DNA of 57,387 nucleotides, from NCBI GenBank assembly GCA_964505525.1, contig CAZDIQ010000002.1, positions 1-57,387 of the forward strand. The letters are read 5' to 3'. The notes under the pieces are model-generated. The model made no database searches and was not told the origin of the DNA. It was given only the letters and a program-made list of their open reading frames with translations. The stretch comes from an uncultured Acidimicrobiaceae bacterium (lineage in GTDB: Bacteria > Actinomycetota > Acidimicrobiia > Spongiisociales > UBA5794). A program made the position numbers and the translations under genes. Positions 11,492 through 57,317 of this stretch are shown piece by piece. Every line of letters starts with the position of its first letter. Position 1 is the first letter of the stretch.

Positions 11492-13870
11492 GTGACTGTT
11501 GACGCAACGCGACCGTTCACGGTTGTCGATGGAAACCTTTCGGCTGTGAGCGACAACTTGGTGGTCGTGTTCGATGCGGACACGGGTGGAATGCGCGAAA
11601 TCAGGAATCGGATCACGGGCCATGCGGTTTGCGACGCTGTGTCACCGATTCCTTGGAGACTGCAACGGGTCGGCACTCGCTGGAGTGCTTTCCCCAAGAA
11701 CCTCCCGCCATGGCTCCACGGCGACGAGATTGTGCCGGACGAGTTTCATTTCTCGATATCTGAGGACGGGTGGTCGGCCGATCTTGGTTGGTCGACGTCC
11801 ACGTATGGGATCCGGGTCTCGGTCGTCGCCAGTATCTCAAGGCAGACGGGTGACCTGGAGCTTCGGCCCACCGTTCATGTGGATGTCGGAACCGAGACAC
11901 CCGAGTTCCTGACGTATCCGATTCTTGAACATCCGACGATCGATGTCGGCACCGAGGGCGATCTGCAGTTCATCGCCCCGTCGCATTCAGGGATGATGAT
12001 TCGACGACCTCATGATGAGGCCCCGTGGGAGGCTCCATACCCGGATGGGTATGCGGGATGTTCGATGCAATTCATGGCGCTTATCGAATCAGGGTCAGGG
12101 GGGTTCTACCTGGCCTCGCACGATCCGCACTCGACATGGAAGGTGCTGCGGTTCAGCGGTGACGAATGGTCAATCTCGCACTATGCGTGGGACCTGCGAG
12201 AAGGAACGTCAATCGATCTGGAGTATCCCGTTGTGCTGGGCGCTCTGATTGTCGGTGATTGGTTCGAGGCTGCAGAGCGATATAGAAGTTGGGCGCTCAC
12301 AGCACCTTGGAGCAACTCGCACCCATCTGAGTCCATGCCCGGAGTTGACCGAGAACGCCGGCGATGGCTGCAGGAAGAAGTCGGCTTGGCGATTTGGGGT
12401 GCTCCAGCATCGCTTGATTGGTCACCGTGGTATCGCATGTACGGCGAAATAGCGGGGACACCCCTTCACATTTGCCCGATGTGGGATTGGACAAACCCGC
12501 TACCGCAGTCGCGGGGAAGGGAAGGTTGGTTCCCAGCGAGGTTTCACGAATCAAACCTGGACGCGTGGAAGGGCCATTTCGTGACGCCCTACATGAACGA
12601 TCTGTTCGTGTCGTCGTCGGCTGTCGATTTTCACGATCAGTGGGAGCCGAATGCTGTGTACCCATACGCAATATTCCCGTTCACCCGCTTCTCGGAGTTC
12701 GACCCGGGCGTGATTGCAACCGGGACACCATCCTCGGATCCGCTCGTAACGACCGACGTGCCGTTCTACATGTGTCCCGCCACCACTGCACAGACGGAGC
12801 TCCACGCATGGCGTGACCTCGGACTCATGCGCGACCATGACATGGACGGTGTCTGCTACGACATTTCATCTGGAAATCCACTCCAGATCTCTCGGTGTCT
12901 CCGCTGGGAACACGGGCATCCCCCAGGCAGGGGGAGACACATGATTGAGGCTGCGGACCGGATGAACCGCATCTCGAAACAAGTTGTTGATGGAGCAACC
13001 CACCGTTACCTCGTCCAGGGAGTGGAGACGATTGTCGAGAACATCATCGGTTCGGTCGACTTCTATGTCGCTCGCGCTGGGGCTGGACCACTCGCGTATC
13101 ACGAGGCATGGGTCCCGAGCCATGAGCAACCACCTGGAACCGGACGAGAGCTGCTTCCCATGTTCGAAGCCGTGTATCACTCCATCGGTCCTGTGCGCCA
13201 TGACGGCTGGCTCACGATGGCCGAAAATCACGGTGACATCTTCTTCTGGGCCGCGGCACGGATCGTGCTGCAGTGGGGTGGTCTGCTTTCGCTCCACTAC
13301 AGCTACGGCTTCGCATTCAATCCACCCGAACGAATCGACGGAATCGATGAGCTGCCCGAGCACGTCAACTGGGACGGCTCGACAATCCGGTTTGAAGAAC
13401 TCCCGGAACTCGATGTTGCCAAGGCATTGTTTGTCAAACAGCTGGCAACCGCTCGGACTCGGATGGCTGTACCGTACCTGGCCCATGGCACGATGATTCG
13501 ACCCGTGTCCGTCGACGTTGGCGTGACACGAGCTTCGTTCGCTGGTCGTTTCAGCTCGGCACCCACACTCGTGCTGGAAGGCACCTGGGACGTTCCATCC
13601 GTGGTCCATGGCGCGTGGCAGGCACCGAATGGAGCTATTGGGCTCATGTTCGCTGCGGTCGGGACTGAATCCGTTCAGTTCAGCTCGTCGATCGATGCCG
13701 AGAAACTGTGGGGCATTCAACTTGGTGGTTCGACGGTCACGGTTTACGACTCCGACGGCGCATTGGCCGAGTATCGCGTCGGGTCGGACAACCGAGTAGT
13801 GCTTGACTTTGTCCTCGCCTCGAGACGTGTGTACCTGGTCGAGATCGTGCGTGACGAAAAGGCTGATTGA
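11492..13870 (+). CDS. Large uncharacterised cytoplasmic protein, paralog family copy 1 of 4 (792 aa); glycoside-hydrolase-like by architecture and context only
   Basis: GTG start preceded by GGAGGA; no signal peptide. It shares long conserved blocks with 27118..29466, 39860..42154 and 54542..57196. These include YPDGYAGCS, GGFYLASHDP, FYMCPATT...HAWRD, DGVCYDISSGN, RCLRWEHGHPPGRG, QGVETI, VDFYVARAGAGP and HDGW...GDIFF. Confidence 0.85.
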   Translation: MTVDATRPFTVVDGNLSAVSDNLVVVFDADTGGMREIRNRITGHAVCDAVSPIPWRLQRVGTRWSAFPKNLPPWLHGDEIVPDEFHFSISEDGWSADLGWSTSTYGIRVSVVASISRQTGDLELRPTVHVDVGTETPEFLTYPILEHPTIDVGTEGDLQFIAPSHSGMMIRRPHDEAPWEAPYPDGYAGCSMQFMALIESGSGGFYLASHDPHSTWKVLRFSGDEWSISHYAWDLREGTSIDLEYPVVLGALIVGDWFEAAERYRSWALTAPWSNSHPSESMPGVDRERRRWLQEEVGLAIWGAPASLDWSPWYRMYGEIAGTPLHICPMWDWTNPLPQSRGREGWFPARFHESNLDAWKGHFVTPYMNDLFVSSSAVDFHDQWEPNAVYPYAIFPFTRFSEFDPGVIATGTPSSDPLVTTDVPFYMCPATTAQTELHAWRDLGLMRDHDMDGVCYDISSGNPLQISRCLRWEHGHPPGRGRHMIEAADRMNRISKQVVDGATHRYLVQGVETIVENIIGSVDFYVARAGAGPLAYHEAWVPSHEQPPGTGRELLPMFEAVYHSIGPVRHDGWLTMAENHGDIFFWAAARIVLQWGGLLSLHYSYGFAFNPPERIDGIDELPEHVNWDGSTIRFEELPELDVAKALFVKQLATARTRMAVPYLAHGTMIRPVSVDVGVTRASFAGRFSSAPTLVLEGTWDVPSVVHGAWQAPNGAIGLMFAAVGTESVQFSSSIDAEKLWGIQLGGSTVTVYDSDGALAEYRVGSDNRVVLDFVLASRRVYLVEIVRDEKAD

Positions 13871-25280: not shown

Positions 25281-26963
25281 ATGAATCGATTCCGCATGCG
25301 ACAGGCGAGGATCGTCGTTCTCGTACTCGTACTGATGCTGGTGGCTGCCGCGTGCAGCAGCAGTTCAGACGACACAACGACAACCACCGCCGACGGCGCG
25401 ACTACGACGACTACATCCGGTGGCGGAGGTGGGGAGACCACGACGACCGTTGATCCAGGTGAAGCCAAACAAGGTGGCACCATCGTGATCGGTGTTCAGG
25501 CCGAGACAGAATGTCTTGATGTGCCGAACTGCAACATCCACGTGGACGCGCGGGCTCAGACAAACCTTGCCTACGGGCAGCTCATGTCGGCCAACAGCGA
25601 AGGAGACTATGTCCCCTACATGCTGGAGTCCGCCGTCCCCAATGACGACGCCACGGTTTGGACGCTGAAGATCCGTGAGGGCATCACCTTCCATGACGGC
25701 ACACCGTTGAACGCCGAGTCGCTCAAGATCAACTTTGATCGTGCAGCGCTGTTCAGCTTGAACTCCGCGTCGTTCGACTACTACGAATCGACCGAGATCC
25801 TGGATGATCTGACGGTCGAGGTGCTTCTCAACAAGCCATACGCTGTGTTCCCGCAGGCACTTGCCGATGGGTTTGGTGCGATCGCCTCGCCAGCTGCGCT
25901 GGAGGCTCAAGGTGACGCCTACGCAAGCAGTCAGGACAACCCACCCGTTGGCACGGGTCCGTACAAGCTTGTCGAGTGGGTACGTGACAGCCACCAGATC
26001 TGGGAGAAGTTCGAGGACTATCAGTTCGACAATCGGGCATTTGCCGACAGGATCGAGTTCCGGATTCTTCCCGACGACGCGGCACGTGCAGCGGCACTCC
26101 GCGCCGGAGACATCGACATCGCAGTGACACTGAGTCCATCAACGATCGTCTCGTTCAGGGATGACCCGAATTACACCGTCAATGAGCTCGACTACGGGGC
26201 GACAGGAATCCTGTTCCAGCTCGAGGAGATCCCGGACATCCGGATCCGTCAGGCGGTAGCAATGGCGATCGACAAGGAGACGATGATCGGACTGGTTTGG
26301 GAAGGAGTCGGGGAAGCGATCGAGACGCCATTCCGGGAGGACAACTTCTGGTACGCCGACGTTGACTATCCGCCATTTGACCCTGCAGGTGCCGCAGCGC
26401 TCGTGGCTGAAGTCGAGGCCGAAACCGGCCAGCCGGTGGTCGTGACCTTGACGCCTCGGATCGACGAGACGAGCATCAACTTCGGCACCGTCGTCGTTGA
26501 ACAGCTCAGGGCTGTTGGTATGGATGCGTCCCTTGACATATCGGTCGACACGAACGACTTTGTGAATCGGTACATCGAGGGTCAGTACGAAATGATGGGT
26601 ACCGGTGTGTTCACGGTTCTCGATCCATGGTTCGAGTACACGAGAAGGTACGAGTCGACCAGTGTGCTCAACGGAACCGGCCTCGGGACCGTGTATCCCG
26701 AGGTCCAAGCTGAGATCGACGAGATGCTTGCCATCGGCGCTGGTTCGGCGGATCCGAATGTACGCAAGGAAGCATACGACCGTGTCCAGGAGCTGCTCGC
26801 TGAGTATGTCATTCAGCTGTTCATCCGCTCGGATGTCTACGGTGTGATTGTCTCGAACGACGTGCTCGGATTTCGAACATTGAAGAATCCAGACGGTTCG
26901 AACGGACTGGGTAACTTCTTCACGGCAATTCTGGCCGACGAACTCTGGCTGGACCAGGGCTAG
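25281..26963 (+). CDS. ABC transporter substrate-binding lipoprotein, family 5 (Opp/Dpp-type; peptide or oligosaccharide binding)
   Basis: Lipobox (LVAAAC) followed by a Ser/Thr/Gly linker. The family-5 SBP core carries GGTIVIGV, ITFHDGTPLNAE and GTGPYKLVEW. Confidence 0.88.
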   Translation: MNRFRMRQARIVVLVLVLMLVAAACSSSSDDTTTTTADGATTTTTSGGGGGETTTTVDPGEAKQGGTIVIGVQAETECLDVPNCNIHVDARAQTNLAYGQLMSANSEGDYVPYMLESAVPNDDATVWTLKIREGITFHDGTPLNAESLKINFDRAALFSLNSASFDYYESTEILDDLTVEVLLNKPYAVFPQALADGFGAIASPAALEAQGDAYASSQDNPPVGTGPYKLVEWVRDSHQIWEKFEDYQFDNRAFADRIEFRILPDDAARAAALRAGDIDIAVTLSPSTIVSFRDDPNYTVNELDYGATGILFQLEEIPDIRIRQAVAMAIDKETMIGLVWEGVGEAIETPFREDNFWYADVDYPPFDPAGAAALVAEVEAETGQPVVVTLTPRIDETSINFGTVVVEQLRAVGMDASLDISVDTNDFVNRYIEGQYEMMGTGVFTVLDPWFEYTRRYESTSVLNGTGLGTVYPEVQAEIDEMLAIGAGSADPNVRKEAYDRVQELLAEYVIQLFIRSDVYGVIVSNDVLGFRTLKNPDGSNGLGNFFTAILADELWLDQG

Positions 26964-27117: not shown

Positions 27118-29466
27118 GTGAAGTTTCAGCTTGCGGATGGGTTCCTCAGATTCGATGACGGTTACCTCGTCGTGCGATTCGGCGAGACGAGCGGGTCGAT
27201 CGAGTTCGTGGAGAACCTCGTTACTGGCCAGATTCTTGTTGATGCGCCGACGCCGGTCCCCTGGCGGATGCGTTCGCAGGGTTCGGGGCACCGTTGGTTT
27301 ACGCCCCGGGCAACATTCACAACACCGAACGATCCGACACCGGCTTCCTTTCAGTACAGCGTGGCTCCCGACGGGGAGTCAGCAAACTTGACGTGGATCA
27401 CCAGCGAGCCGGGTGTTCGGCTCGAGGTTCGTGCCTGTGCAGCGAGTGGGGGTGGCATCGAGTTGTGGCCCAGGGTTGTCGTCGAAGTGGGTGCCAGACC
27501 TCCGGAGGCTCTCACCTATCCGATCCTCGAGGCGCCGAAGGTCTTGTCTCAGGACGGAACATGCGACCGTCTCGTCTTCCCCGGACATTCGGGGTGGTTG
27601 ATTTCATCTCCTCAAGCTGTCGAGGCTCTTGAGGCCAGGTATCCGGATGGCTATGCCGGGGCATCTCTCCAGTTCATGGCGTACTTCACCGACGCGATCG
27701 GGGGCTTCTATGTTGCGACTCACGACCCGTACTCGACTGCCAAGCATTTTCGATTCTCGGCAGACGAGGCAAGCGTCGATCATGAAGCCTTCGACATCCG
27801 ACGCGGTGCAGACCTCGACCTTGACTACCCGGTTGTATTGGCCCCGCTGTCGAGGGGAGATTGGTATGAAGCCGCGGACCGCTACCGGGATTGGGTCCTT
27901 GTCAATGCGCCATGGGTGACGGGACACCAGGGAAACGCGACCGACCCGTCCCGGGACGGTGCGCGCTGGCTCTTCGACGAAGTCGGGTTCTCGATTTGGT
28001 GTACGCCAGCGCGACCGGATTGGAGCCAGTTCTACCAGCACTATGCGGAAGTCGCAGGTACACCGCTGCACATCGTGCCTGCATGGGATTGGCCAGCGAC
28101 ACTTCCACCGTCGCGCGGTGACGTTGGAGTCTTTCCTGCAACGTTTCATCCGGCGAACGTCCAAGCATGGGAGGGACATCGCGTGACGCCGTATCTCAAT
28201 GACCTCTTCGTCTCTGCGCGCGCACCCGAGTTCGAGAAGCGATGGGAACCGAATCTTCTGTTCCCGTATGTGGCGTTCAATTGGGTTCCGTTCGCAGAAC
28301 CGACGACCGGTTGGGTCGACGGTGAACACCCTGGTCCTGATCCCATTACGACGACGAATCAGGACTTCTTCCTGTGTCCGACGACTGAGGTACAGAAGGA
28401 ACTTCACGCATGGCGTGATAGCGTCTTGGTGAGTGAGTACGGGATGGACGGCGTCTTCTACGACATCTCGTCGGGCAACACGTGGCCCTGGTCGCGGTGC
28501 TTGCGGGCCGACCATGGCCATCCTCCTGGCCGAGGGAGAGAGATCGTACAGGCGTACGAGACGCTCAACGCGCTGTCGAAGCAAGCCGTTCTCGCCTCTA
28601 CCGGCCGGTACCTTGTCCAAGGTACGGAGGTGATACAGGAGCCGGTCATGGGTTCGGTGGATTTCTATGTGTCGCGAGCGTGCGCCGGTCCCATGGGTTC
28701 TCTTGAAACCGAGGTATTCGGCCCGGAAACCCAACCGGGTGGGGGCCGAGAGCTCATTCCTCTGTTCCAGGCTGTGTATCACGATGTCGGACCTGTACAC
28801 GAAGACGGCTGGATCACACTTTCGGAGGAGTCGGGCGATCTCTTCTATTTCATAGCGGCTCGAATCGCGCTCGTGTGGGGAGGGATCCTGTCGCTGCAGT
28901 ACTCAACGGAACCACCCGAGGCCTTCTCCGGCATGGACCTCGGCACTCCCACCGAAACGATCCTGTGGGATGCGGCGCGGGTCACATGGGACACGTTTCC
29001 CGTGTCCTCCCCCGGAAAGGAAGCCTTCGTAAAGGAGCTTGCAATCGCAAGAACCACCTTCGGTCAACCGTATCTTGCATATGGGAAGATGCTGCAACCT
29101 CCAACCGTGGAGTCGGCAGCGATCGAGTTGGACTTCCATCAGACGTTCTATGGCTGGGGTTCCGAGGGATGGAGCAACGATGGATCCTGGATGGTCCCCA
29201 GTGTCATGACCTCGGCGTGGCGAGGCCCGGCAGGTGAGATCGGGATCGTGTTACTCAACCTTGCCGCGCAGGGTCCGGTTCAGGTCGCTCTTCGGACGGA
29301 TCTCGGCCAGATGTGGTCTCTCGAGAGAGCTGGGTGCGCCGTCGAAGTAATGAAGAGCGAAGGATCGGAGTCACGCGGAGCCGTTTCTCCAGAGAACCGT
29401 CTCGAGGTCGATGTCGCACTGGAGCCACGCAAGGTGACCATCGTTACGATCGCTCCGCCTGCGTGA
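27118..29466 (+). CDS. Large uncharacterised cytoplasmic protein, paralog family copy 2 of 4 (782 aa)
   Basis: GTG start with RBS GGAGGGGAGG. It carries the same conserved blocks as copy 1: YPDGYAGAS, GGFYVATHDP, FFLCPTTE...HAWRD, DGVFYDISSGN, RCLRADHGHPPGRG, QGTEVI and VDFYVSRACAGP. Confidence 0.85.
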   Translation: MKFQLADGFLRFDDGYLVVRFGETSGSIEFVENLVTGQILVDAPTPVPWRMRSQGSGHRWFTPRATFTTPNDPTPASFQYSVAPDGESANLTWITSEPGVRLEVRACAASGGGIELWPRVVVEVGARPPEALTYPILEAPKVLSQDGTCDRLVFPGHSGWLISSPQAVEALEARYPDGYAGASLQFMAYFTDAIGGFYVATHDPYSTAKHFRFSADEASVDHEAFDIRRGADLDLDYPVVLAPLSRGDWYEAADRYRDWVLVNAPWVTGHQGNATDPSRDGARWLFDEVGFSIWCTPARPDWSQFYQHYAEVAGTPLHIVPAWDWPATLPPSRGDVGVFPATFHPANVQAWEGHRVTPYLNDLFVSARAPEFEKRWEPNLLFPYVAFNWVPFAEPTTGWVDGEHPGPDPITTTNQDFFLCPTTEVQKELHAWRDSVLVSEYGMDGVFYDISSGNTWPWSRCLRADHGHPPGRGREIVQAYETLNALSKQAVLASTGRYLVQGTEVIQEPVMGSVDFYVSRACAGPMGSLETEVFGPETQPGGGRELIPLFQAVYHDVGPVHEDGWITLSEESGDLFYFIAARIALVWGGILSLQYSTEPPEAFSGMDLGTPTETILWDAARVTWDTFPVSSPGKEAFVKELAIARTTFGQPYLAYGKMLQPPTVESAAIELDFHQTFYGWGSEGWSNDGSWMVPSVMTSAWRGPAGEIGIVLLNLAAQGPVQVALRTDLGQMWSLERAGCAVEVMKSEGSESRGAVSPENRLEVDVALEPRKVTIVTIAPPA

Positions 29467-30496
29467 AGCGTGAGGCAGCCGCCGTTGTCGGTGTCGCTAG
29501 TGGCACTTCGGTGTGAATCGGGTGGTGACACGCGACGAAGTGATCAGGACCGATGCGGTGCATTGGTGGTTCCTCCGTCATGCACACCTCGGTCGCGGCC
29601 GGACATCGGGTGCGGAACCTGCATCCGCTCGGAGGATCGATCGGTGACGGGACTTCGCCACTGAGTGGATTTGGCATCGCCTCGTGGGCACCCAACCTTG
29701 GTACCGAGTCGAGCAATGCCTTGGTGTAGTGATGACTCGGGTGGCTGTATACGGAGTCGGAATCCCCGATTTCACAGAGCTTGCCAAGATACATGACGGC
29801 CAGCCTGTCGCTCACATTCTTGATCACGGCAAGGTCGTGGGCGATGAATAGCATGGTCAGACCGTATCGTTCCTTCATCGATGCCAAGAGATTGAGAATC
29901 TGACCCTGTACGGACACGTCAAGGGATGCGACCGGTTCGTCACAGACCAGGAGCGTCGGCTCCAGAATCAATGCTCGTGCTATGGCGATGCGCTGTGCTT
30001 GACCACCTGAGAATGCCCTGGGTTTCTTGTCTCCCATCAGATCTGCATCGAGACCGACTGCCTCAAGCATGGTTGCAACCAAGTCCTCAGGTGCGTCCTG
30101 AAAACGCTGCGGCCAGATCGCCAGCGGCTCAGCTACGACATCTCGGATCCGTCGCCGGGGGTTCAAGGACGCCAAAGGGTCTTGAAAAATCATCTGGAAG
30201 TCGGGTCGGAGCTGTCTCAGTCCTTCCCGCTTCATCGAGGCGAGGTCGCTACCTTCGAGAAGGATGCTCCCCGACTTCGGTCGGACCAGCTGCATGATTG
30301 CATGCCCTGTAGTTGATTTTCCACAGCCAGACTCCCCAACAAGACCGAGCGTCTCACCACGAGCGAGATCAAAACTGACACCGGAAACGGCGTGCACGGT
30401 TTCCCCGGCGTCTGCGGGGAATTCCACGACAAGGTCCCGCACCTCGAGGAGGACGTCGACATCGGGTCGGAGGTGTTCGGGTCGGTCAGGTTGCAT
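29444..30496 (-). CDS. Opp/Dpp-type ABC transporter ATP-binding protein (OppF/DppF-like)
   Basis: Walker A GESGCGKST, signature FSGGQAQR and Walker B LLVCDEPV, plus the C-terminal oligopeptide-type extension. The start is set at ATG 30496 (MQPDRPE...), overlapping the upstream ATPase gene by 11 nt. The ORF is open to 30628. Confidence 0.85.
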   Translation of the reverse strand: MQPDRPEHLRPDVDVLLEVRDLVVEFPADAGETVHAVSGVSFDLARGETLGLVGESGCGKSTTGHAIMQLVRPKSGSILLEGSDLASMKREGLRQLRPDFQMIFQDPLASLNPRRRIRDVVAEPLAIWPQRFQDAPEDLVATMLEAVGLDADLMGDKKPRAFSGGQAQRIAIARALILEPTLLVCDEPVASLDVSVQGQILNLLASMKERYGLTMLFIAHDLAVIKNVSDRLAVMYLGKLCEIGDSDSVYSHPSHHYTKALLDSVPRLGAHEAMPNPLSGEVPSPIDPPSGCRFRTRCPAATEVCMTEEPPMHRIGPDHFVACHHPIHTEVPLATPTTAAASRFTQAERS

Positions 30497-31463
30497 CGTA
30501 TTCCACCGGATGCCAACACGCGTAGACGTGTTCGTTCGAACCCACGAGGGGAGGACGTTCCGTGTCGCACCGATCAGCTGCGCGCGTACACCGCGGGAAA
30601 AATGGACACGATGGCGTGACATTGACAAGGTCTGGTGGTCTGCCCGGAATCACTGGCAGCTTGTGGTGGCGTTGGTGATCGAGCTGCGGAATCGAGGTGA
30701 TGAGCGCTTCGGTGTATGGCATCCGGGGGCGTGAGAGCACGACCTCGGCGCCACTTCTCTCGACGATGCGCCCGGCATACATCACAGCGATCTCGTCAGC
30801 CATGGCCGACACGACGGCGAGATCATGGCTGACGAAGATCATCGCCATTTGGCGATCTGCCTGCAAAGACCGCAAGAGAGCGAGTATCTGTGCCTGGATC
30901 GTGACATCGAGTGCGGTCGTCGGTTCGTCGGCGATGAGCAGACTCGGTTCGCCCGCAAGTGCCATCGCGATGACCACTCGCTGGCGCATTCCTCCCGATA
31001 GTTGGTGCGGGTATTGTTTGAGACGCCGAGCAGGGGACGGAATGCCAACCGAGGCCAGAAGCTCCACGGCTTTGGCATCGGCGGCCGAACGTGACATACC
31101 CAGTCGCCTAGTGAGAATCTCTGTGACCTGCCGTCCGATCCTGACCACTGGGTTCAAAGAAGACAGCGGGTTCTGGGGGACGATGGCAATGCTCGTCCCC
31201 CATCGTTCGCGCAATGCATCCTTGGACAGTGACCGGAGGTCGACCCCGTCAAGCCAGACCTCGCCGGAGGAGCGGGCAACGTGGCTTCCCGTCTGGATAC
31301 CCATGATCGAGCGCGTGAGGACGCTCTTGCCCGATCCGGATTCGCCGACCAGACCGAGGGTCTTGCCACGCTCGAGTTCGAACGAGACATCATTCACTGC
31401 CTTGAGGACGCCACGACCGGTGTGGAACCATGTCGTGAGATCGTCGACGCGCAGCAACGTCAT
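30486..31463 (-). CDS. Opp/Dpp-type ABC transporter ATP-binding protein (OppD/DppD-like)
   Basis: Walker A GESGSGKS, signature LSGGMRQR and Walker B LLIADEPTTALD. ATGA overlap with the upstream permease gene. Confidence 0.88.
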   Translation of the reverse strand: MTLLRVDDLTTWFHTGRGVLKAVNDVSFELERGKTLGLVGESGSGKSVLTRSIMGIQTGSHVARSSGEVWLDGVDLRSLSKDALRERWGTSIAIVPQNPLSSLNPVVRIGRQVTEILTRRLGMSRSAADAKAVELLASVGIPSPARRLKQYPHQLSGGMRQRVVIAMALAGEPSLLIADEPTTALDVTIQAQILALLRSLQADRQMAMIFVSHDLAVVSAMADEIAVMYAGRIVERSGAEVVLSRPRMPYTEALITSIPQLDHQRHHKLPVIPGRPPDLVNVTPSCPFFPRCTRAADRCDTERPPLVGSNEHVYACWHPVEYDAT

Positions 31464-32362
31464 GCTTGGATTCCGCCTCTGAGGTCATCGCTGTGCCGGA
31501 GCTTGTCGCCAATGGTGTTGAGCGCAAGAACCGTGAGGAAGAGAATGGCAGCGGGGAAGAGGCTGATGTGCGGGTGTGCTTCCAGCTGTGCTCGCCCGTG
31601 GGAGATCATGCCTCCCCATGTCGGGATATCGGGAGGCACTCCGAGCCCCAGGAAGCTGAGCGAGGCCTCGATGACGATCGCCACGGCCACGATGACGAAG
31701 GCGTATGCGACCATCGTCGGCAGGATGTTGGGGCTTACCTCGCGCAGTATCACCCTGGAATGCCGAGCGCCGAGAGTTCGAGCAGCGTGGACGAACTCCC
31801 GTTCGGAGTAAGCAAGCGTCTCCGCCCGTGCGATCCTGGCGAACGCAGGGAGGGCAAGAATCGCAATGGCCACGACGACGTTCCCGGTGCCTGCGCCGAG
31901 CACGGCGGCGAGCGCAATCGCCAGCACGAGGGCGGGGAATGACAAGAGGATATCCATAGCACCCATTGAGAGCGTTTCGGACATGCCGCGGAAATAGCCA
32001 GCCAGAAGGCCAAGGACCATGCCGACGAAACCGGACAAGAATGTCGCAAGCAGCCCGACAACCAGCGATGTGCGTGCACCGTAGATCATCCGCGACAGCA
32101 TGTCGCGACCAAGGCTGTCGGCGCCAAGCCAATGCGCAGCGGTAGGCCCCTGCCTCCCTGCACCACCGTCGAGAGTGTTTGGGGGTATCAGGGGTAGGAG
32201 GTCGGCGAACACTGCAACGAAAACAATGAGGCCGAACCAAACGACGGCAATCGTGAGAGGAATATCCCTCCGCCGCCGCCGATGCGCACCGTCGTCGATT
32301 TCCTCGATTGCGACAATGGTGTCGGATACGGTTGCCGTCTGTTCGATGTCAGGACTTGCCAT
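31460..32362 (-). CDS. Opp/Dpp-type ABC transporter permease (DppC/OppC-like)
   Basis: Multi-pass protein with the binding-protein-dependent transport signature region (SEREFVHAARTLGARHSRVILREVSPN). The start is uncertain: ATG 32362 chosen, ORF open to 32401. Confidence 0.8.
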   Translation of the reverse strand: MASPDIEQTATVSDTIVAIEEIDDGAHRRRRRDIPLTIAVVWFGLIVFVAVFADLLPLIPPNTLDGGAGRQGPTAAHWLGADSLGRDMLSRMIYGARTSLVVGLLATFLSGFVGMVLGLLAGYFRGMSETLSMGAMDILLSFPALVLAIALAAVLGAGTGNVVVAIAILALPAFARIARAETLAYSEREFVHAARTLGARHSRVILREVSPNILPTMVAYAFVIVAVAIVIEASLSFLGLGVPPDIPTWGGMISHGRAQLEAHPHISLFPAAILFLTVLALNTIGDKLRHSDDLRGGIQA

Positions 32363-33380
32363 ACCGGATCCTCGGATCAGCCACCAGATATGCGATGTCA
32401 ACGATGTAGTTGATGATGACGTATGTCACTGCAATCAACCCGACCAATGCCTGGACGGTGATGATGTCGCGCGTGTTGATCGAGTCCACCACGAGGCGGC
32501 CGATTCCGGGGAGACCAAAGATTGTTTCGATGATCACGGAACCTCCGATGAGAGCACCGGTACTGAGGCCGACCAACGTGAGCAGTGGCAGCGAAGCCGG
32601 TCGCAGCGCATGTCGCATCACGATCACCCTCGTGCTGAGTCCTTTGGCGCGGGCCATCATGATGTAGTCCTCATTGAGCGATGCCACCATCCCGGCGCGA
32701 AGGACCCTCGTGTAGATGCCCGCTTCTGCCGCCGCGAGTGCCAAGGCAGGAAGGGCAATGGACTTGAGATTCGGGATGATTCCGTCACTGAGGGGTCGGT
32801 ACCCGGTTGACGGGAGGACTCCGAATCGGACGGCAAAGATCTGGATCAGAACGATGGCGCCGATGAATGTCGGTATGGACACGAGAGCGAACGAAACGGT
32901 GTTCACGCTTCGGTCAAACGACTTCCCGCTATTGAGCGCTGCAATCGGCGCGAAAATCAAAGCGAAACTGAGCGCGAGGAACTGCGATAGCAACATCACC
33001 TGGATCGTGACCGGTATTCGCGGGACGATGAGATCCGTCACCGGCTGCCTGATTCGATACGAGGTCCCGAGATCCCCTTGAAGGGCATTTCCGGCCCATC
33101 TGCCATAGCGTACGAGTACGTTCTGATCGAGACCCAGATCGGCGCGGATCTGGTCAATGAGTTCCTGTGAGAGGTTGAATGTGTCGCCGCCAGCGATGGC
33201 CACCGCAGGGTCCCCTGGTAGGAGATCCAGCATGAGGGCTGTCAAGAAGGTGACGAGAACGAGGGTGATGGCAAGCCGAACGGTCCTGCGGAATATCGGT
33301 CCGCCGCGATAGCGCAACGGACGTCGCTTGGGTGCCGGAGCCGCCGAGGGGTCGACTTCCGCTTTGGTGTCGGCCACCAT
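32349..33380 (-). CDS. Opp/Dpp-type ABC transporter permease (DppB/OppB-like)
   Basis: N-terminal FRRTVRLAITLVLVTFLTALMLDLLPGDP and the EAA-like region (NEDYIMMARAKGLSTRVIVMRHALR). RBS AGGAG. Confidence 0.85.
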   Translation of the reverse strand: MVADTKAEVDPSAAPAPKRRPLRYRGGPIFRRTVRLAITLVLVTFLTALMLDLLPGDPAVAIAGGDTFNLSQELIDQIRADLGLDQNVLVRYGRWAGNALQGDLGTSYRIRQPVTDLIVPRIPVTIQVMLLSQFLALSFALIFAPIAALNSGKSFDRSVNTVSFALVSIPTFIGAIVLIQIFAVRFGVLPSTGYRPLSDGIIPNLKSIALPALALAAAEAGIYTRVLRAGMVASLNEDYIMMARAKGLSTRVIVMRHALRPASLPLLTLVGLSTGALIGGSVIIETIFGLPGIGRLVVDSINTRDIITVQALVGLIAVTYVIINYIVDIAYLVADPRIRYGKS

Positions 33381-35794: not shown

Positions 35795-35966
35795 TGTCAG
35801 CCTTCGGTCAATGTTGCGAACCGGGAAAGCCATCAAGTAGCATTTCACTGGATGGAATACCGTTTCAAAGTTAGTGCTGCCCGTGTCCCCTGTCAATGTG
35901 GACGGGGCGCTGCGTCGTCCACGGCATCGACCTGATGGGCTACCCGCCGATGACCATGCCAGAACC

Positions 35967-37271: not shown

Positions 37272-37339
37272 GGGCATGGGTAGTGTTTGACGCGCGCCCA
37301 TTGAAATGGCAAGCTGCTATGTGAAATGGTGACCAACCG

Positions 37340-38428: not shown

Positions 38429-38470
38429 GGTGATCCTCCGCATCGACGACCGCGACGACACACCGGGTGC

Positions 38471-39859: not shown

Positions 39860-42154
39860 TCACTCTGGTGGCGTGATGACCAGCGTCACTGGGTGTCGGG
39901 GCGGAAGTGATACGTCGATCGCAAGCGCACCGTTTGTGAATGTGGCCGTACCGATCCCTGAGGCCGTCTCTACAACCCCGTCACGGACCCCCCAACCAGC
40001 GGGATGGGTCGTGCTTGTCAATTGCGTCACTGTTTCACCGAGATTCAAGAGGAAGACGCCGATGGTTCCATCCTTTGCCATCCACGCGCTCGACAGAATC
40101 TGGGGTACATCCCAGGCGCCTGAGCGTGTCACTCCGGTAACCACCGGATTCTTCCGCTGATAGTCGAGACTGATCGACGGCGAGTCGATTTCAGGCGGAG
40201 GAATCATTCGACCGTAGGCGAGGTACTTGTTTCCTTCACCCGTTCGCAGTGCACTCACAATCCGCACAAAATCGAGATGACCGGGCTCGACGGGGCGAAG
40301 GTCGTCGAATGTGTGTAGTCCGCCGTCCCAAGAAATGACTGCACTCGTGTCGGATGTCGGAATCAGTTCCGGTGGATTGTTTGCGTAGTGCATTGAGAAC
40401 ACACCACCCCACAAGAGCGCGATTCGACCCACAACCCAGTAGAACAGGTCACCGAACGTTTCGTCCAGCGTGAGCCAGCCATCCTCGTGGACCGGACCGA
40501 CGTCGTGATAGATGGCTTGGAACAGTGGGACGAGGTCGCGGCCAGTCCCTGGCGGCAGTTCGGGTCCAAGCGTGAGGGCCTCAAGACCTCCGAGGGGCCC
40601 CGCACCTGCGCGCGAGACATAGAAGTCGATGTCCTGGATCACATGCTCGACGATTGTCTCGACACCCTGCGCGGGGATCCGCCCGGTCGCATCCGTCATT
40701 GCGGCACGCGAGATTCTGTTGTTCTCGGCGTAGGCACGCAGAACATCTCGGCTCCAGCCCGGTGTGTGGCCGTGCTCATCACGGAGACACCTCGCGGCGA
40801 AGGGATTGCCTGACGAAATGTCATAGAACACACCGGCCAAGTCATGGTCACCCACGAGGCGGGAGTCCCGCCAAGCGTGAAAATCACGCTGGATCTCCGT
40901 CGATGGACACACAAAGAAGTCGATGTCCGACATGACCTTGGGATCTCCCGGACTCGAGCGCTTGTCGATGTAGGCGGGTGATCGTTCGGCAAACACCGTG
41001 AATGCGAACGTCTTGTAAGGGAAGACCAGATTCGGCTCCCAGTTCTCAAGGAAGTCGGGAGCCTGAACGGAAATGAATAGGTCGTTCAGGTATGGAGTGA
41101 CATAGTGGTCGGCCCATGCTTGAAGGTTGGCTTTGTGGAAGTTCGCGGGGAACCAACCTTCCTTGCCGACGTAGTGGGGGCGGGTCCGTGGCCAGTCCCA
41201 ACCAGAAACGATGTGCAGTGTGCTGTTGGTCGCTTCAGCGAGGTACCGATACCGATCAGACCAGTCCAACGATGACGGTGTACCCCAAATCGAGAGGCCG
41301 ATCTCTTCGAAGAGCCACTTCGGGCGGTCGATGCCGACACGTCCAAGGTTTTCGCCCGCCGAGGACCACGGTGCTGTCAAGGCCCACTTGCGATAGATTT
41401 CTGCGGCTTCGTACCAATCACCGCGTTCGAGGAGGGAAACGACGACAGGGTAGTCGAGATGTAGGTCCGTGCCCCTCCTCAAATCCCATGCGTCGTGCCG
41501 GACGGACCACTCCTCTGGTCCGAACATGAGCTGTTTGTGTGTCACATGCGGGTCGTGGCATGCCAAAGACAGCCCACCCGCGGCTGGTGAGTAATACGCC
41601 ATCATCTGCACTGAGCATCCGTGATAGCCGTCGGGATATGGCGCTTCAGTGACCGTGGCGAGCGGGTCCGACACAAGCCAGCCGGAGTGTGCTGGGAACA
41701 AGAGTCGGTCGTCGGACCCGAGCGGATTGGGATGAAGCACGGGGTACACGAAGTGTGCTGGTGGGCTGACTGACTCCGAGACATGCACATGGGGCCAAAA
41801 CATCAGGTCACCATCGTCATTGAACGTCAATCGAACGGTCACGTGGACGCCCTCGTGTGATGTTGTCCACTTGAGACTGACGCCCGTTGCGTCAAGATCC
41901 CACGTGAATTCCGCCGGTACGATCTCGGCGAGATGGAGATCGGGAGCGCTCGCCGCGTTCGCCCATGTGCTCAAGGTTGTGCCTTGTTGGATGAGACGCC
42001 ACGGTATGGACTGGCCGCCGTTGGCAAAGATGATGCCGCTGGCCACGCTTTCGATTCTGGTGATCGCGCCGGTGGTGGTGTCGAGCGCAACGATTAACCG
42101 GTCGCTCGAGCACACGAGGTGGTTCCCCTGATGGACGACGGTTGGTGGTGTCAT
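39860..42154 (-). CDS. Large uncharacterised cytoplasmic protein, paralog family copy 3 of 4 (764 aa)
   Basis: Same conserved blocks: YPDGYHGCS, GGLSLACHDP, FFVCPSTE...HAWRD, GVFYDISSGN, RCLRDEHGHTPG, QGVETI and IDFYVSRAGAGP. The ATG overlaps the stop of the upstream acyl-CoA synthetase gene (ATGA). Confidence 0.85.
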   Translation of the reverse strand: MTPPTVVHQGNHLVCSSDRLIVALDTTTGAITRIESVASGIIFANGGQSIPWRLIQQGTTLSTWANAASAPDLHLAEIVPAEFTWDLDATGVSLKWTTSHEGVHVTVRLTFNDDGDLMFWPHVHVSESVSPPAHFVYPVLHPNPLGSDDRLLFPAHSGWLVSDPLATVTEAPYPDGYHGCSVQMMAYYSPAAGGLSLACHDPHVTHKQLMFGPEEWSVRHDAWDLRRGTDLHLDYPVVVSLLERGDWYEAAEIYRKWALTAPWSSAGENLGRVGIDRPKWLFEEIGLSIWGTPSSLDWSDRYRYLAEATNSTLHIVSGWDWPRTRPHYVGKEGWFPANFHKANLQAWADHYVTPYLNDLFISVQAPDFLENWEPNLVFPYKTFAFTVFAERSPAYIDKRSSPGDPKVMSDIDFFVCPSTEIQRDFHAWRDSRLVGDHDLAGVFYDISSGNPFAARCLRDEHGHTPGWSRDVLRAYAENNRISRAAMTDATGRIPAQGVETIVEHVIQDIDFYVSRAGAGPLGGLEALTLGPELPPGTGRDLVPLFQAIYHDVGPVHEDGWLTLDETFGDLFYWVVGRIALLWGGVFSMHYANNPPELIPTSDTSAVISWDGGLHTFDDLRPVEPGHLDFVRIVSALRTGEGNKYLAYGRMIPPPEIDSPSISLDYQRKNPVVTGVTRSGAWDVPQILSSAWMAKDGTIGVFLLNLGETVTQLTSTTHPAGWGVRDGVVETASGIGTATFTNGALAIDVSLPPRHPVTLVITPPE

Positions 42155-45708: not shown

Positions 45709-46176
45709 ATGCCAATGACACATGAGGCGATGGAGCAAGCAATCCGGGGCTACTTTGATGCGTGCAACAGGGGAGACGCCGACGCGATAGCCGCGTTCTT
45801 CACGGATGACGCCGTCCACTATTTTCCACCAGGCATGTACGAGGGCCCGTTCAGAACCGCCACAACAATCGGGGATCGATGGCGGCAGGCAGTCGAGGGT
45901 CTGGGGTCGATGTGGACCATCGACCAACTGATCACCGACGCCGAAACCGGTCGTGCGGTCATTGAGTGGACGCACTTCAAGACAGCAAAAGGGACCGTGC
46001 TCCGCGGTGATGAGTGGTACATCTTCGATCCTGACTCCGGTTTGATCGCGGAGATTCGGGCCTACTACGCGTCCCCACAGGCCGAGAACCTCCAGACACT
46101 CGAGCTCGAAGGGTTCGACTACGCGGGGAGGGGATACACAACCGATCCTCCGTTTACCCGCGAAATCGCCGAATGA
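45709..46176 (+). CDS. SnoaL-like / NTF2-fold protein
   Basis: 155 aa carrying YFDACNRGDADAIAAFFTDDAVHYFP, typical of SnoaL-like polyketide cyclase/NTF2 domains. Confidence 0.7.
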   Translation: MPMTHEAMEQAIRGYFDACNRGDADAIAAFFTDDAVHYFPPGMYEGPFRTATTIGDRWRQAVEGLGSMWTIDQLITDAETGRAVIEWTHFKTAKGTVLRGDEWYIFDPDSGLIAEIRAYYASPQAENLQTLELEGFDYAGRGYTTDPPFTREIAE

Positions 46177-49027: not shown

Positions 49028-49044
49028 CAGGAGGGGTGAGACCC

Positions 49045-51233: not shown

Positions 51234-51246
51234 TGGCGGCCTCCTG

Positions 51247-52185: not shown

Positions 52186-52302
52186 GGTCTCCTCCACTTG
52201 CGAACTCCGCTTGGATCTGATCCGCACTCGCGATCAGTGTAGGCTGATGATTCCTCATGACGGAAAGGTGTTTCCCAAGATGAACGATAGGGTGGTGGTC
52301 AG

Positions 52303-53373: not shown

Positions 53374-53374
53374 C

Positions 53375-57196: not shown

Positions 57197-57277
57197 AAGG
57201 CATGCCTTTTCGAAGTGCGCAAAGGCTACTCGAATCGGAGCCACTTGGCACTCGGTTCGACCCGTCCCGGCGTGGTT

Positions 57278-57317
57278 GGCAGGCAGCAGGCACACTACGT
57301 CCTGCCCACTGCCTGCC
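57278..57317 (-). terminator. Terminator-like hairpin between the truncated upstream gene and paralog copy 4
   Basis: GGCAGGCAG-CAGG...CCTG-CCCA-CTGCCTGCC forms 9-bp and 4-bp stems. On the minus strand it begins 12 nt after the putative stop at 57329. Confidence 0.4.

What the first reader, a model, noticed from the sequence alone, without database searches (positions are those of the whole stretch)
11492..13870. Four-member paralogous family of large cytoplasmic proteins with an invariant Cys/His/Asp/Glu signature and no family assignment I can make
Seen in sequence: four ORFs are clearly homologous over almost their whole length. They are 11492..13870 (+, 792 aa), 27118..29466 (+, 782 aa), 39860..42154 (-, 764 aa) and 54542..57196 (-, 884 aa). 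The shared blocks are as follows.
- (V/I)P(W/F)R near the N-terminus.
- YPDGY(A/H)G in copies 1-3.
- GG(F/L)(Y/S)(L/V/F)A(S/T/C)HDP.
- W(F/Y)EAA(E/D)(R/I)YR.
- (F/A)(Y/F)(M/L/V)CP(A/T/S)T.
- G(V/I)xYD(I/V)S.
- C(L/M)xxxH(G/D)H(P/T)(P/T)G.
- G(V/T)E(T/V)I.
- (V/I)DF(Y/A)...(R)A(G/C)AG.
- (H/E/L)DGW...GD(I/L)F(F/Y).
In copy 1 the core signature is Cys428, the YDIS Asp, Cys469, His474 and His476 (nt 12764..12930). None of the four has a signal peptide. Inference: the layout is N-terminal beta-sandwich-like, then a central barrel-like region with an invariant Asp after a hydrophobic strand and an invariant Glu, then a C-terminal beta region. That layout, together with the genomic company (GH172, sugar-acid enzymes, oligosaccharide-type importer), suggests a new glycan-active enzyme family. 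The two Cys and two His could form a metal site or a Cys-based catalytic centre, by analogy with the Zn/Cys chemistry of GH127 beta-L-arabinofuranosidases. The family may correspond to a Pfam DUF, which I cannot verify here. Four copies within 46 kb is highly unusual for any single family.
Basis: partly seen in the sequence, partly recalled or inferred. Interest (0 to 1): 0.88.

Follow-up and report, generated by a model that had tools for sequence, protein, structure and literature searches.

The report
Uncharacterised glycosidase family tied to D-arabinan breakdown
The four large paralogous proteins belong to Pfam family DUF6259, which has no known function; they are predicted to fold like GH129/GH36-type sugar-cleaving enzymes, and in several bacterial phyla their relatives sit next to the enzymes that digest D-arabinan, the unusual sugar polymer of mycobacterial cell walls, so they are good candidates for an undescribed glycosidase family.

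Summary
Four full-length paralogues (30-46% identity, BLASTP E 1e-73 or lower) lie at the stated coordinates and carry the listed motifs.

- **Family:** All four pass the gathering threshold of Pfam PF19773 (DUF6259). The wider family spans about 3,400 clusters at 50% identity. I found no name, solved structure or paper for it.
- **Fold:** AlphaFold2 (pLDDT 93.9) gives an N-terminal beta-sandwich, a (beta/alpha)8 barrel and a C-terminal beta-sandwich. The closest solved folds are GH129 (NagBb, ZgGH129), the FpGalNase galactosaminidase, and GH36 and GH31, at 8-14% identity.
- **Conserved residues:** D457, E512 and E516 (copy 1) are at least 98% conserved in 214 relatives (D457 in all 193 aligned). 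C428/C469/H474/H476 are present in about 88%. C428 is sometimes Asp or His and some subclades lose the site, which fits an accessory metal site, not a GH127-like Cys nucleophile.
- **Context:** 15 of 17 long DUF6259 loci carry GH172. Bacillota, Chloroflexota and Gaiellaceae share an operon of secreted GH183 endo-D-arabinanase, ABC importer, DUF6259 and GH172. Copy 4 lies near an ExoMA1 orthologue (E 1.6e-157).
- **Best reading:** a cytoplasmic retaining exo-glycosidase that works with GH172 on imported D-arabinofuranose-containing oligosaccharides. It may remove the beta-1,2 cap, as GH116 does in Microbacterium.

The substrate is untested.

The parts
11492..13870 (+). DUF6259 copy 1 (792-aa ORF; database gene call is 774 aa). 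Actinomycetota-only clade A. Downstream of an IclR regulator gene.
   Evidence: ORF. PF19773 hit, E 1.1e-10, above gathering. AF2 model pLDDT 93.9. Tree placement.
12122..13039 (+). Stretch of copy 1 that holds the family-invariant residues: D211, K217, W257 and Y264 (N-domain/linker); C428; D457 (proposed nucleophile); C469, H474 and H476 (proposed metal site together with C428); E512 (proposed acid/base); E516.
   Evidence: Codon positions. Conservation across 214 relatives.
27118..29466 (+). DUF6259 copy 2 (782 aa), clade A. Directly downstream of the SBP_bac_5 gene and convergent with the Opp-type ABC genes.
   Evidence: Orthologue with the same neighbours in L009.
39860..42154 (-). DUF6259 copy 3 (764 aa), clade A. 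Its start overlaps the stop of the AMP-binding gene 42151-43764 by 4 nt, placing it in one operon with that gene and the HpcH aldolase gene.
   Evidence: Orthologue with AMP-binding, Rieske, ADP-ribosylglycohydrolase and P450 neighbours in L010.
54542..57295 (-). DUF6259 copy 4 (917-aa ORF; 884 aa from the ATG at 57196). It has two insertions. It is the copy closest to the D-arabinan-operon type of Bacillota and Chloroflexota.
   Evidence: PF19773 hit, E 2.5e-22. Best window match of the Paenibacillus operon protein, 335 bits. Tree placement.
52303..53373 (+). GH172 gene, orthologue of the characterised exo-alpha-D-arabinofuranosidase ExoMA1.
   Evidence: DUF2961 hit, E 3.5e-90. phmmer to PDB 8ic8, E 1.6e-157 over the full length.
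46173..47417 (+). GH172 gene of the alphaFFase1 / DgGH172c type.
   Evidence: PDB hits 7v1v (E 5e-62), 4kq7 and 8ah3.
49000..50259 (+). Third GH172 gene.
   Evidence: DUF2961 hit, E 2.2e-70.
25281..26963 (+). SBP_bac_5 solute-binding protein of the presumed oligosaccharide importer.
   Evidence: The same family sits next to DUF6259 in L001, L003, L008 and L009.
29444..33380 (-). Opp/Dpp-type ABC transporter: two ATPases and two permeases.
50256..54541 (.). AKR (50256-51347, -), PF04199 cyclase-family hydrolase (51247-52227, -) and an MR_MLE acid-sugar-dehydratase-like gene (53375-54541, +) around the ExoMA1-type GH172. These families recur beside clade-A DUF6259 genes and probably handle oxidative catabolism of the released sugar.
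   Evidence: Recurrence in L001, L003, L004, L008 and L021. All are below NCBIfam equivalog cut-offs.

Best explanation
The four genes encode cytoplasmic members of Pfam DUF6259, an uncharacterised glycoside-hydrolase-like family.

Structure (predicted): each protein has an N-terminal beta-sandwich, a (beta/alpha)8 catalytic barrel and a C-terminal beta-sandwich. This is the architecture of GH129, GH36 and GH31.

Mechanism (inferred by analogy): these families are retaining glycosidases, so I propose double-displacement hydrolysis. Asp457 (copy 1), at the end of the 'GVxYD' strand, would be the nucleophile. Glu512, at the end of the next strand, would be the acid/base. Glu516 and the N-domain Asp211 and Lys217 would help bind the sugar. 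Cys428, Cys469, His474 and His476 would hold a metal, probably zinc, that shapes the loop just after the nucleophile. They would not do the chemistry themselves.

Biological role (inferred from gene neighbourhood): a secreted GH183 endo-D-arabinanase, where present, cuts the polymer. An ABC importer takes up the oligosaccharides. Inside the cell GH172 removes alpha-D-arabinofuranose, and DUF6259 removes whatever GH172 cannot. The leading candidate is the beta-1,2-linked D-arabinofuranose cap, the job GH116 subfamily 4 does in Microbacterium. Copy 4 is the operon-type enzyme. Copies 1-3 are an Actinomycetota-specific expansion that probably has shifted substrate preferences.
For: - Family: all four pass the PF19773 gathering threshold.
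- Fold: full-length model pLDDT 93.9, pTM 0.94. Foldseek top hits are FpGalNase 8x1b (E 2.5e-20), GH129 NagBb 5wzp (TM 0.66 on target), ZgGH129, GH36 AgaA and GH31. The barrel-only model also puts GH129 first (E 2.9e-9).
- Residues: D457 is Asp in 193/193, E512 is Glu in 196/198 and E516 is Glu in 195/198 relatives; D211, K217, Y264 and R655 are also near-invariant. The ligand quartet is C-C-H-H in 163 proteins and D-C-H-H in 7, and is lost in about 16 that keep the carboxylates.
- Nucleophile strand: 'DGVCYD' resembles the 'G(V/I)DxxxxD' nucleophile strand of GH27/31/36 (my knowledge). A colinear but non-significant hhalign places it on the YihQ 'GWMAD405' strand.
- Context: GH172 lies within 10 kb in 15 of 17 DUF6259 loci that have at least 8 kb on both sides, across Actinomycetota, Bacillota, Chloroflexota and Bifidobacteriaceae.
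- Operon: GH183, SBP, two permeases, DUF6259 and GH172 are conserved together. In Chloroflexia the LacI-regulated operon has only these three enzymes. The GH183 proteins carry signal or lipoprotein leaders, whereas DUF6259 and GH172 do not. This matches the published model of extracellular endo-enzyme, import and intracellular exo-enzymes (PMC10509167).
- No GH116-sized family recurs in these loci.
- The window's GH172 at 52303 is an ExoMA1 orthologue.
Against: - No biochemical data exist, so substrate and stereochemistry are inferred only.
- Sequence identity to any solved glycosidase is 8-14% and barrel TM-scores are only about 0.5. No sequence or profile method links the family to GH129, GH36 or GH31.
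- I could not obtain model coordinates or structural alignments. The nucleophile and acid/base assignment and the clustering of the Cys/His residues in space are therefore untested.
- The association is one-directional. Only 1 of 31 long metagenome loci centred on ExoMA1-like GH172 has a DUF6259 gene.
- The window has no GH183. Clade-A copies sit among P450, Rieske, AMP-binding, ADP-ribosylglycohydrolase and FAD-oxidase genes, which points to substrates other than plain D-arabinan.
- Paenibacillus-type operons also carry a second unknown protein ('unk675') with faint six-hairpin (GH127 / GlcNAc-2-epimerase-like) hits. It could be the beta-arabinofuranosidase instead.
- The structural neighbours are alpha-pyranosidases, not furanosidases.
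Confidence: 0.6

Rival explanations
1. DUF6259 is a glycosidase of the same operons, but it removes a 1,2-cis alpha-pyranosyl decoration or another non-arabinofuranose residue. Candidates are alpha-D-galactosamine on the arabinan of arabinogalactan, alpha-mannose caps, or in clade A an alpha-D-fructofuranose- or fructopyranose-type linkage in anhydride sugars. The beta-D-arabinofuranose cap would then be handled by another enzyme, such as the six-hairpin-like 'unk675'.
For: - The best structural matches are alpha-galactosaminidase, alpha-N-acetylgalactosaminidase, alpha-3,6-anhydrogalactosidase, alpha-galactosidases and alpha-glucosidases.
- unk675 lies next to GH172 in 8 loci and gives faint hits to six-hairpin families, including the GH127 catalytic domain.
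- Two of the window's three GH172 genes are of the alphaFFase1 / DgGH172c type.
Against: - The compact Chloroflexia operons contain only GH183, GH172 and DUF6259, so a general accessory step is needed there.
- Galactosamine substitution is restricted to some mycobacteria (my knowledge), which fits poorly with a family this widespread in soil bacteria.
- unk675 is absent from most DUF6259 loci.
Confidence: 0.25
2. One reading: the conserved Cys/His cluster is the catalytic centre. This would be a zinc-bound cysteine nucleophile as in GH127 beta-L-arabinofuranosidase, and the Asp/Glu pair would be secondary.
For: - C428, C469, H474 and H476 are conserved in about 88% of 214 relatives and lie in the strands and loops flanking the invariant Asp.
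- The enzymes are linked to arabinofuranoside metabolism, where Cys/Zn chemistry is known from GH127 (my knowledge).
Against: - C428 is replaced by Asp (17 proteins) or His (4). The whole quartet is lost in subclades that keep D457, E512 and E516.
- The fold is a (beta/alpha)8 barrel of the GH129/GH36/GH31 kind, not the (alpha/alpha)6 barrel of GH127.
- There is no Pfam GH127 hit.
Confidence: 0.07
3. DUF6259 proteins have a glycosidase-like fold but are not hydrolases. They could be a transglycosylase or cycloisomerase, a lyase (as in GH31 alpha-glucan lyases), or a non-catalytic sugar-binding protein.
For: - GH31 and GH172 both include non-hydrolytic or synthase-type activities (PMC8605356; my knowledge for GH31 lyases).
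- Clade-A neighbourhoods are rich in oxidoreductases.
Against: - Three carboxylates at strand ends are at least 98% conserved (D457 in all 193 aligned), and the protein has a full three-domain exo-glycosidase architecture.
- It holds an operon position between the importer and GH172.
Confidence: 0.08

Closest known systems
GH129 (NagBb alpha-N-acetylgalactosaminidase of Bifidobacterium bifidum; ZgGH129 alpha-1,3-(3,6-anhydro)-D-galactosidase)
   Same: - Best structural match for the whole protein (TM 0.61-0.67 on target) and for the barrel alone.
- Same three-domain layout; NagBb likewise lacks a signal peptide and is taken to act in the cytosol on imported substrate (PMC7232152).
- Asp nucleophile and Glu acid/base about 45-55 residues apart (NagBb D435/E478 from my memory of Sato et al. 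2017; here D457/E512).
   Different: - 11-14% identity; no sequence or profile match.
- Barrel TM normalised to the query is only about 0.53.
- NagBb uses Ca2+ in GalNAc recognition (PMC8106489), whereas DUF6259 has a Cys2His2-type site.
- The genomic context is D-arabinan/GH172, not mucin or carrageenan.
Clan GH-D and relatives: GH36 (AgaA, SpAga; FpGalNase, which I recall is also assigned to GH36), GH31 (YihQ, GAA), GH27, GH66, GH13
   Same: - N-terminal beta-sandwich, (beta/alpha)8 barrel and C-terminal beta-sandwich.
- Foldseek E-values from 1e-20 to 1e-12.
- A 'G-hydrophobic-x-x-D' strand that resembles their nucleophile strand.
   Different: - No detectable sequence homology (hhalign against E. 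coli YihQ gives 0.2-1.8% probability).
- The acid/base appears to sit on the strand right after the nucleophile, not two strands later.
- DUF6259 has an extra metal site.
GH116 subfamily 4 exo-beta-D-arabinofuranosidase (ExoMA2, Microbacterium arabinogalactanolyticum)
   Same: - Occupies the same place in the system: an intracellular enzyme without a signal peptide, encoded with GH183, an ABC importer and GH172 (PMC10509167, compared).
- A possible functional equivalent.
   Different: - Unrelated fold: ExoMA2 is a beta-sandwich plus an (alpha/alpha)6 barrel, while DUF6259 has a (beta/alpha)8 barrel.
- Functional equivalence is only an inference from gene neighbourhood.
   Same: Conserved cysteines, a probable zinc site, and a link to arabinofuranoside metabolism.
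   Different: - Different fold.
- In DUF6259 the cysteines are replaceable while the Asp and Glu are not.
- No Pfam GH127 hit.
Pfam PF19773 (DUF6259)
   Same: All four proteins are members above the curated threshold. Relatives are named 'DUF6259 domain-containing protein' or 'hypothetical protein'.
   Different: - The Pfam model covers only about 300 residues of the barrel.
- No function, structure or literature is attached to it.
- The copies here are full three-domain proteins.

Membership tests
Pfam PF19773 (DUF6259) | Score above the curated gathering threshold (28.7 bits). | tested here: met
   The four copies score 41.5, 53.8, 46.7 and 79.8 bits. All 68 close homologues carry a precomputed PF19773 hit.
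GH129 | Sequence similarity to characterised GH129 members (CAZy families are defined by sequence). | tested here: not met
   phmmer and profile hmmsearch against PDB sequences, which include NagBb and ZgGH129, gave no hit. No Pfam hit other than DUF6259 at E up to 10.
GH129 | Three-domain fold with a (beta/alpha)8 catalytic barrel. | tested here: met
   AF2 model. Foldseek to 5wzp/5wzn/5wzr: E 2e-16 to 2e-15 and TM 0.64-0.67 on target for the full length. GH129 is also the top hit for the barrel alone.
GH129 | Catalytic Asp nucleophile and Glu acid/base at structurally equivalent positions. | tested here: inconclusive
   D457 and E512 are invariant and lie at the ends of consecutive strands. 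No residue-level structural alignment could be obtained.
Clan GH-D (GH27/GH31/GH36) | Detectable sequence or profile relationship, with the nucleophile Asp on beta4 and the acid/base Asp on beta6. | tested here: inconclusive
   Fold match is E 1e-15 to 1e-12. hhalign against YihQ gives 0.2-1.8% probability. That low-confidence alignment puts D457 within one residue of YihQ D405. The candidate acid/base is a Glu on the next strand.
   No PF07944 hit. The model is a (beta/alpha)8 barrel. The Cys positions vary (C to D, H or S) while the Asp and Glu are fixed.
GH116 subfamily 4 (exo-beta-D-arabinofuranosidase) | Homology to ExoMA2; beta-sandwich plus (alpha/alpha)6 barrel. | tested here: not met
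   No PDB sequence hit and a different fold (one search compared with PMC10509167).
D-arabinan utilisation locus (GH183 + ABC importer + GH172 + a third exo-enzyme) | Co-location with a GH183 endo-D-arabinanase, a sugar ABC importer and a GH172 exo-alpha-D-arabinofuranosidase. | tested here: met
   Met for the clade-B homologues of Paenibacillus, Bacillaceae, Clostridia, Chloroflexota and Gaiellaceae. In this window it is only partly met: the ExoMA1-type GH172 and an importer are present but GH183 is absent.
D-arabinan utilisation locus | Demonstrated activity on D-arabinan or D-arabino-oligosaccharides. | not testable with these tools
   Needs enzyme assays.
Zinc (Cys2His2-type) metalloprotein site | Four ligands close in space and metal bound. 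| not testable with these tools
   Only the sequence pattern is available: C-C-H-H in 163 proteins, D-C-H-H in 7.

The most novel reading that the evidence does not exclude
DUF6259 is a new CAZy glycoside hydrolase family of intracellular exo-beta-D-arabinofuranosidases. It would be a non-homologous replacement for GH116 subfamily 4, built on a GH129-like (beta/alpha)8 barrel with an Asp/Glu pair and an adjacent Cys2His2 zinc site. It would complete D-arabinan (arabinogalactan and lipoarabinomannan) breakdown in Bacillota, Chloroflexota and many Actinomycetota. The four window copies would be a specificity-diversified set.
Probability: 0.25. Interest if true: 0.75.

Novelty: new variant of a known kind. 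Interest (0 to 1): 0.62.

Why it matters
- **Mycobacterial cell wall:** D-arabinan is the core of arabinogalactan and lipoarabinomannan. Enzymes that cut it were identified only in 2021-2023 (GH172, GH183, GH116 subfamily 4), and they are used as tools for cell-wall analysis and LAM diagnostics.
- **Gap in the model:** a widespread, conserved third enzyme in D-arabinan operons that belongs to none of these families would mean the published degradation scheme is incomplete for most Gram-positive and Chloroflexota degraders.
- **CAZy:** if activity is shown, the family would probably be given a new glycoside hydrolase family number.
- **Testability:** the claim can be tested directly, because cultured Paenibacillus and Virgibacillus species carry the operon.
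- **Soil ecology:** the expansion in Acidimicrobiia (four DUF6259 and three GH172 genes in 46 kb) suggests that soil Actinomycetota invest heavily in recycling D-arabinofuranose-containing material, possibly actinobacterial necromass.

Tried and rejected
- **Sequence links to solved structures.** phmmer with copy 1 and a 66-sequence profile against PDB sequences gave only noise: eIF5B at E 0.027 and Juno at E 2.
- **NCBIfam.** No family for any copy.
- **Pfam at E up to 10.** Nothing but DUF6259 plus noise.
- **hhalign.** The family profile against E. coli YihQ (GH31) and the window's own GH114 gave 0.2-1.8% probability. I used this only as a weak hint for the nucleophile strand.
- **'FYMC428P' motif.** I first thought it matched the Asp of the 'VDLTNP' motif of GH31/GH13. 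The low-confidence alignment does not place them in register, so I dropped the idea.
- **Literature.** 'DUF6259' and 'PF19773' returned 0 papers. Searches on GH172, D-arabinan, GH183, arabinofuranosidase and fructopyranosidase found no mention of the family. The NagBb structure paper could not be fetched by DOI.
- **Reverse neighbourhood test.** Only 1 of 31 long loci centred on ExoMA1-like GH172 has DUF6259. I therefore rejected the idea that DUF6259 is an obligatory partner of GH172.
- **A specific D-arabinose oxidative pathway.** The AKR, cyclase, MR_MLE, FAH, aldolase and aldehyde-dehydrogenase genes all score far below NCBIfam equivalog cut-offs. The assignment stays generic: acid-sugar catabolism.
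- **'unk675' as a GH116 homologue.** It has no PDB sequence hit and only faint six-hairpin Pfam hits.
- **Recent tandem duplication or assembly artefact.** Rejected, because the copies are 30-46% identical and have separate orthologues elsewhere.


Full report
**1. Observation**

The ORFs are present as described: 11492-13870 (+, 792 aa), 27118-29466 (+, 782 aa) and 39860-42154 (-, 764 aa).

A four-way MAFFT alignment shows 46, 44 and 30% identity to copy 1 along the whole length, and every listed motif is there. BLASTP gives E = 0.0 among copies 1-3 and 1e-73 to 3e-91 against copy 4. The residue numbers given for copy 1 are correct: C428, D457, C469, H474, H476 and E512 lie at nt 12773, 12860, 12896, 12911, 12917 and 13025. 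The window is about 60% G+C throughout.

**2. Family**

All four proteins score above the gathering threshold of Pfam PF19773, 'DUF6259' (E 1e-10 to 2.5e-22). The hit covers only the central 300 residues or so.

- NCBIfam has no model for it.
- PDB sequences give nothing, either with one protein or with a 66-sequence profile.
- Full-text searches for DUF6259 and PF19773 return no paper.
- The 68 close homologues are all unnamed or 'DUF6259 domain-containing'. Those with a source name come from Acidimicrobiia or Actinomycetota MAGs.
- A profile search of 1.84 billion representatives finds 3,389 clusters at E <= 1e-3 and 567 at E <= 1e-30. The family is large.

**3. Fold**

AlphaFold2 with the 66-sequence alignment gives a confident model (pLDDT 93.9, pTM 0.94). 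It has an N-terminal beta-sandwich (about residues 1-235 of the 774-aa gene call), a (beta/alpha)8-type barrel (about 236-650) and a C-terminal beta-sandwich.

Foldseek against the PDB ranks these first:
- FpGalNase, the A-antigen galactosaminidase (E 2.5e-20)
- GH129 NagBb (TM 0.64-0.67 on target)
- ZgGH129
- GH36 alpha-galactosidases
- GH31 alpha-glucosidases and sulfoquinovosidase

All share 8-13% identity with the query. A separate model of the barrel alone (pLDDT 89) again puts GH129 first, followed by FpGalNase, GH66, GH31, GH13 and GH36, with TM about 0.5.

The family therefore belongs structurally to the alpha-galactosidase/alpha-glucosidase-type barrel superfamily and is nearest to GH129. 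It is far from every solved member, and no sequence or profile method bridges the gap.

**4. Conserved residues**

I aligned 214 relatives to the family HMM. In the 792-aa numbering of copy 1:
- D457 is Asp in 193/193.
- E512 is Glu in 196/198 and E516 in 195/198.
- D211 is Asp in 187/187.
- K217, W257, Y264, Y562 and R655 are 93-100% conserved.

The Cys/His positions behave differently:
- C428 is Cys 165, Asp 17, His 4.
- C469 is Cys 179, Ser 9.
- H474 and H476 are each His in 185/194.

Taken as a quartet, C-C-H-H occurs 163 times and D-C-H-H 7 times. About 16 proteins have lost the site (for example 'SDRxD' replaces 'C....H.H') while keeping the three carboxylates.

Cys-to-Asp or Cys-to-His exchange is what metal ligands do. 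Losing the site while the carboxylates stay argues against a Cys-based catalytic centre. D457 ends the strand 'GVCYD', which follows a long helix. E512 ends the very next strand.

The 'G-hydrophobic-x-x-D' strand resembles the nucleophile strand of GH27/31/36 (my knowledge). A colinear but statistically insignificant hhalign against E. coli YihQ lands it on 'GWMAD405' with a one-residue offset. An Asp-to-Glu spacing of 55 residues on consecutive strands resembles GH129 (D435/E478, from memory) more than GH36 or GH31.

I therefore propose D457 as nucleophile and E512 as acid/base in a retaining mechanism. This is inference, because I could not get residue-level structural alignments or model coordinates.

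**5. Genomic context beyond the window**

*Actinomycetota.* Contigs carrying close homologues repeat the window's company: SBP_bac_5 and Opp-type ABC genes, GH172, AKR, PF04199 cyclase, MR_MLE, FAA-hydrolase, HpcH aldolase, SnoaL, IclR, P450 and ADP-ribosylglycohydrolase.

*Other phyla.* A scan of one genome per species found 39 loci. They come from:
- Actinomycetota: Acidimicrobiia, Gaiellaceae, Baekduia, Bifidobacteriaceae
- Chloroflexota
- Bacillota: five named Paenibacillus species, Virgibacillus, Pseudalkalibacillus, Clostridia

*D-arabinan operon.* In Paenibacillus brevis the gene lies in the order AraC, DUF4185 (= GH183 endo-D-arabinanase), SBP_bac_1, two permeases, DUF6259, DUF2961 (= GH172), an unknown 675-aa protein and a two-component system. 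The core of GH183, SBP, permeases, DUF6259 and GH172 recurs in Paenibacillus, Bacillaceae, Clostridia, several Chloroflexota and Gaiellaceae.

*Minimal operon.* In a Chloroflexia genome the LacI-regulated operon contains only three enzymes: DUF6259, GH183 and GH172. Unrelated genes flank it.

*Localisation.* The GH183 proteins carry Tat-, lipoprotein- or Sec-like leaders, whereas DUF6259 and GH172 do not (by eye).

*Frequency.* Of 17 DUF6259 loci with at least 8 kb on both sides, 15 have GH172 within 10 kb (two of the 17 are the same contig). All-against-all clustering of neighbouring ORFs found no recurrent GH116-sized family.

[quoted passage not shown] Here DUF6259 sits where GH116 would be.

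**6. The window itself**

- The GH172 at 52303-53373 is a full-length orthologue of the characterised exo-alpha-D-arabinofuranosidase ExoMA1 (PDB 8ic8, E 1.6e-157). It lies one gene away from copy 4.
- The GH172 at 46173 is closer to alphaFFase1, BACUNI_00161 and the D. gadei 8ah3 protein (DG02479).
- Copy 4 is the best window match of the Paenibacillus operon protein. In a neighbour-joining tree it sits at the base of the operon-type clade.
- Copies 1-3 form an Actinomycetota-only clade. Copies 2, 3 and 4 each have an orthologue in another Acidimicrobiia MAG that keeps the same neighbours.
- The window has no GH183.
- Copy 3 is translationally coupled to an AMP-binding enzyme gene.

**7. Caveats**

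- The association is one-directional. Among 31 long metagenome loci centred on ExoMA1-like GH172, only one has DUF6259 and three have GH183.
- The sugar-acid genes cannot be assigned to a specific sugar. All fall far below NCBIfam equivalog cut-offs.
- Paenibacillus-type operons carry a second unknown protein (unk675). It gives faint hits to six-hairpin families, including the GH127 catalytic domain, and is a rival candidate for the beta-arabinofuranosidase role.
- The structural neighbours of DUF6259 are alpha-pyranosidases.
- Signal-peptide statements rest on inspection only.

**8. Verdict**

It is wrong on two points: the family already has a Pfam entry, and the chemistry is most likely Asp/Glu with an accessory metal site, not GH127-like Cys/Zn.

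The most useful new result is the conserved placement of DUF6259 in D-arabinan utilisation operons of at least three phyla. I found this nowhere in the accessible literature. It gives a concrete, testable hypothesis for a probable new GH family.

Confidence:
- About 0.6 that DUF6259 is a retaining exo-glycosidase working with GH172 on D-arabinofuranose-containing oligosaccharides.
- About 0.25 that its specific bond is the beta-1,2-D-arabinofuranosyl cap.

Noticed in passing
window 13876-17142 (-): A 1088-aa ORF with no Pfam hit even at E up to 10. Residues 60-445 match the GH138 alpha-galacturonidase-family protein BPa0997 (PDB 6hze, E 4.6e-10). It is a distant GH138-like protein, convergent with DUF6259 copy 1.
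   Followed up: partly
L015:13107-15134 (Paenibacillus brevis); also L022, L023, L028, L040, L041, L092, and partial in L020 and L035: 'unk675' is a protein of about 675 aa conserved just downstream of GH172 in D-arabinan-type operons. It has no significant Pfam hit and no PDB sequence hit, only faint hits to six-hairpin families (GH127 catalytic domain E 0.16; GlcNAc 2-epimerase E 0.006). It is a second uncharacterised candidate enzyme of these loci.
   Followed up: partly
window 2943-4790 (+): A 615-aa ORF with no Pfam and no PDB sequence match, lying between an ABC transporter and a GH114 gene.
   Followed up: partly
window 4977-6626 (+): A GH114 (endo-alpha-1,4-polygalactosaminidase family) domain at residues 44-263, followed by a long proline-rich, repeat-like C-terminal half.
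   Followed up: no
window 46173-53373: Three GH172 paralogues lie within 7 kb. Two are alphaFFase1 / DgGH172c-like and one is an ExoMA1 orthologue. They are interleaved with an aldehyde dehydrogenase, an AKR and a PF04199 cyclase-family gene.
   Followed up: partly
window 39860-44537 (-): DUF6259 copy 3 overlaps the stop of an AMP-binding (acyl/aryl-CoA ligase-like) gene by 4 nt, and that gene follows an HpcH-family aldolase. This is an unusual operon partner for a glycosidase. The AMP-binding adjacency is conserved in a related MAG (L010).
   Followed up: partly
window 34565-39766: Cytochrome P450, ADP-ribosylglycohydrolase, Rieske oxygenase alpha subunit and FAD-dependent (DAO) oxidoreductase genes lie together. 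The P450 and ADP-ribosylglycohydrolase pair recurs beside DUF6259 in L001 and L010. This hints that clade-A enzymes act on a glycoconjugate rather than a plain oligosaccharide.
   Followed up: no
L036:8636-12265 (Bifidobacteriaceae MAG): Here the DUF6259 homologue is part of a 1209-aa ORF with roughly 450 extra N-terminal residues. It lies next to an SBP_bac_1 ABC importer and GH172.
   Followed up: no
window 8750-10549 (-): A 599-aa protein with a weak adenylate/guanylate cyclase domain hit and C-terminal TPR repeats, lying just upstream of the IclR regulator that precedes copy 1.
   Followed up: no
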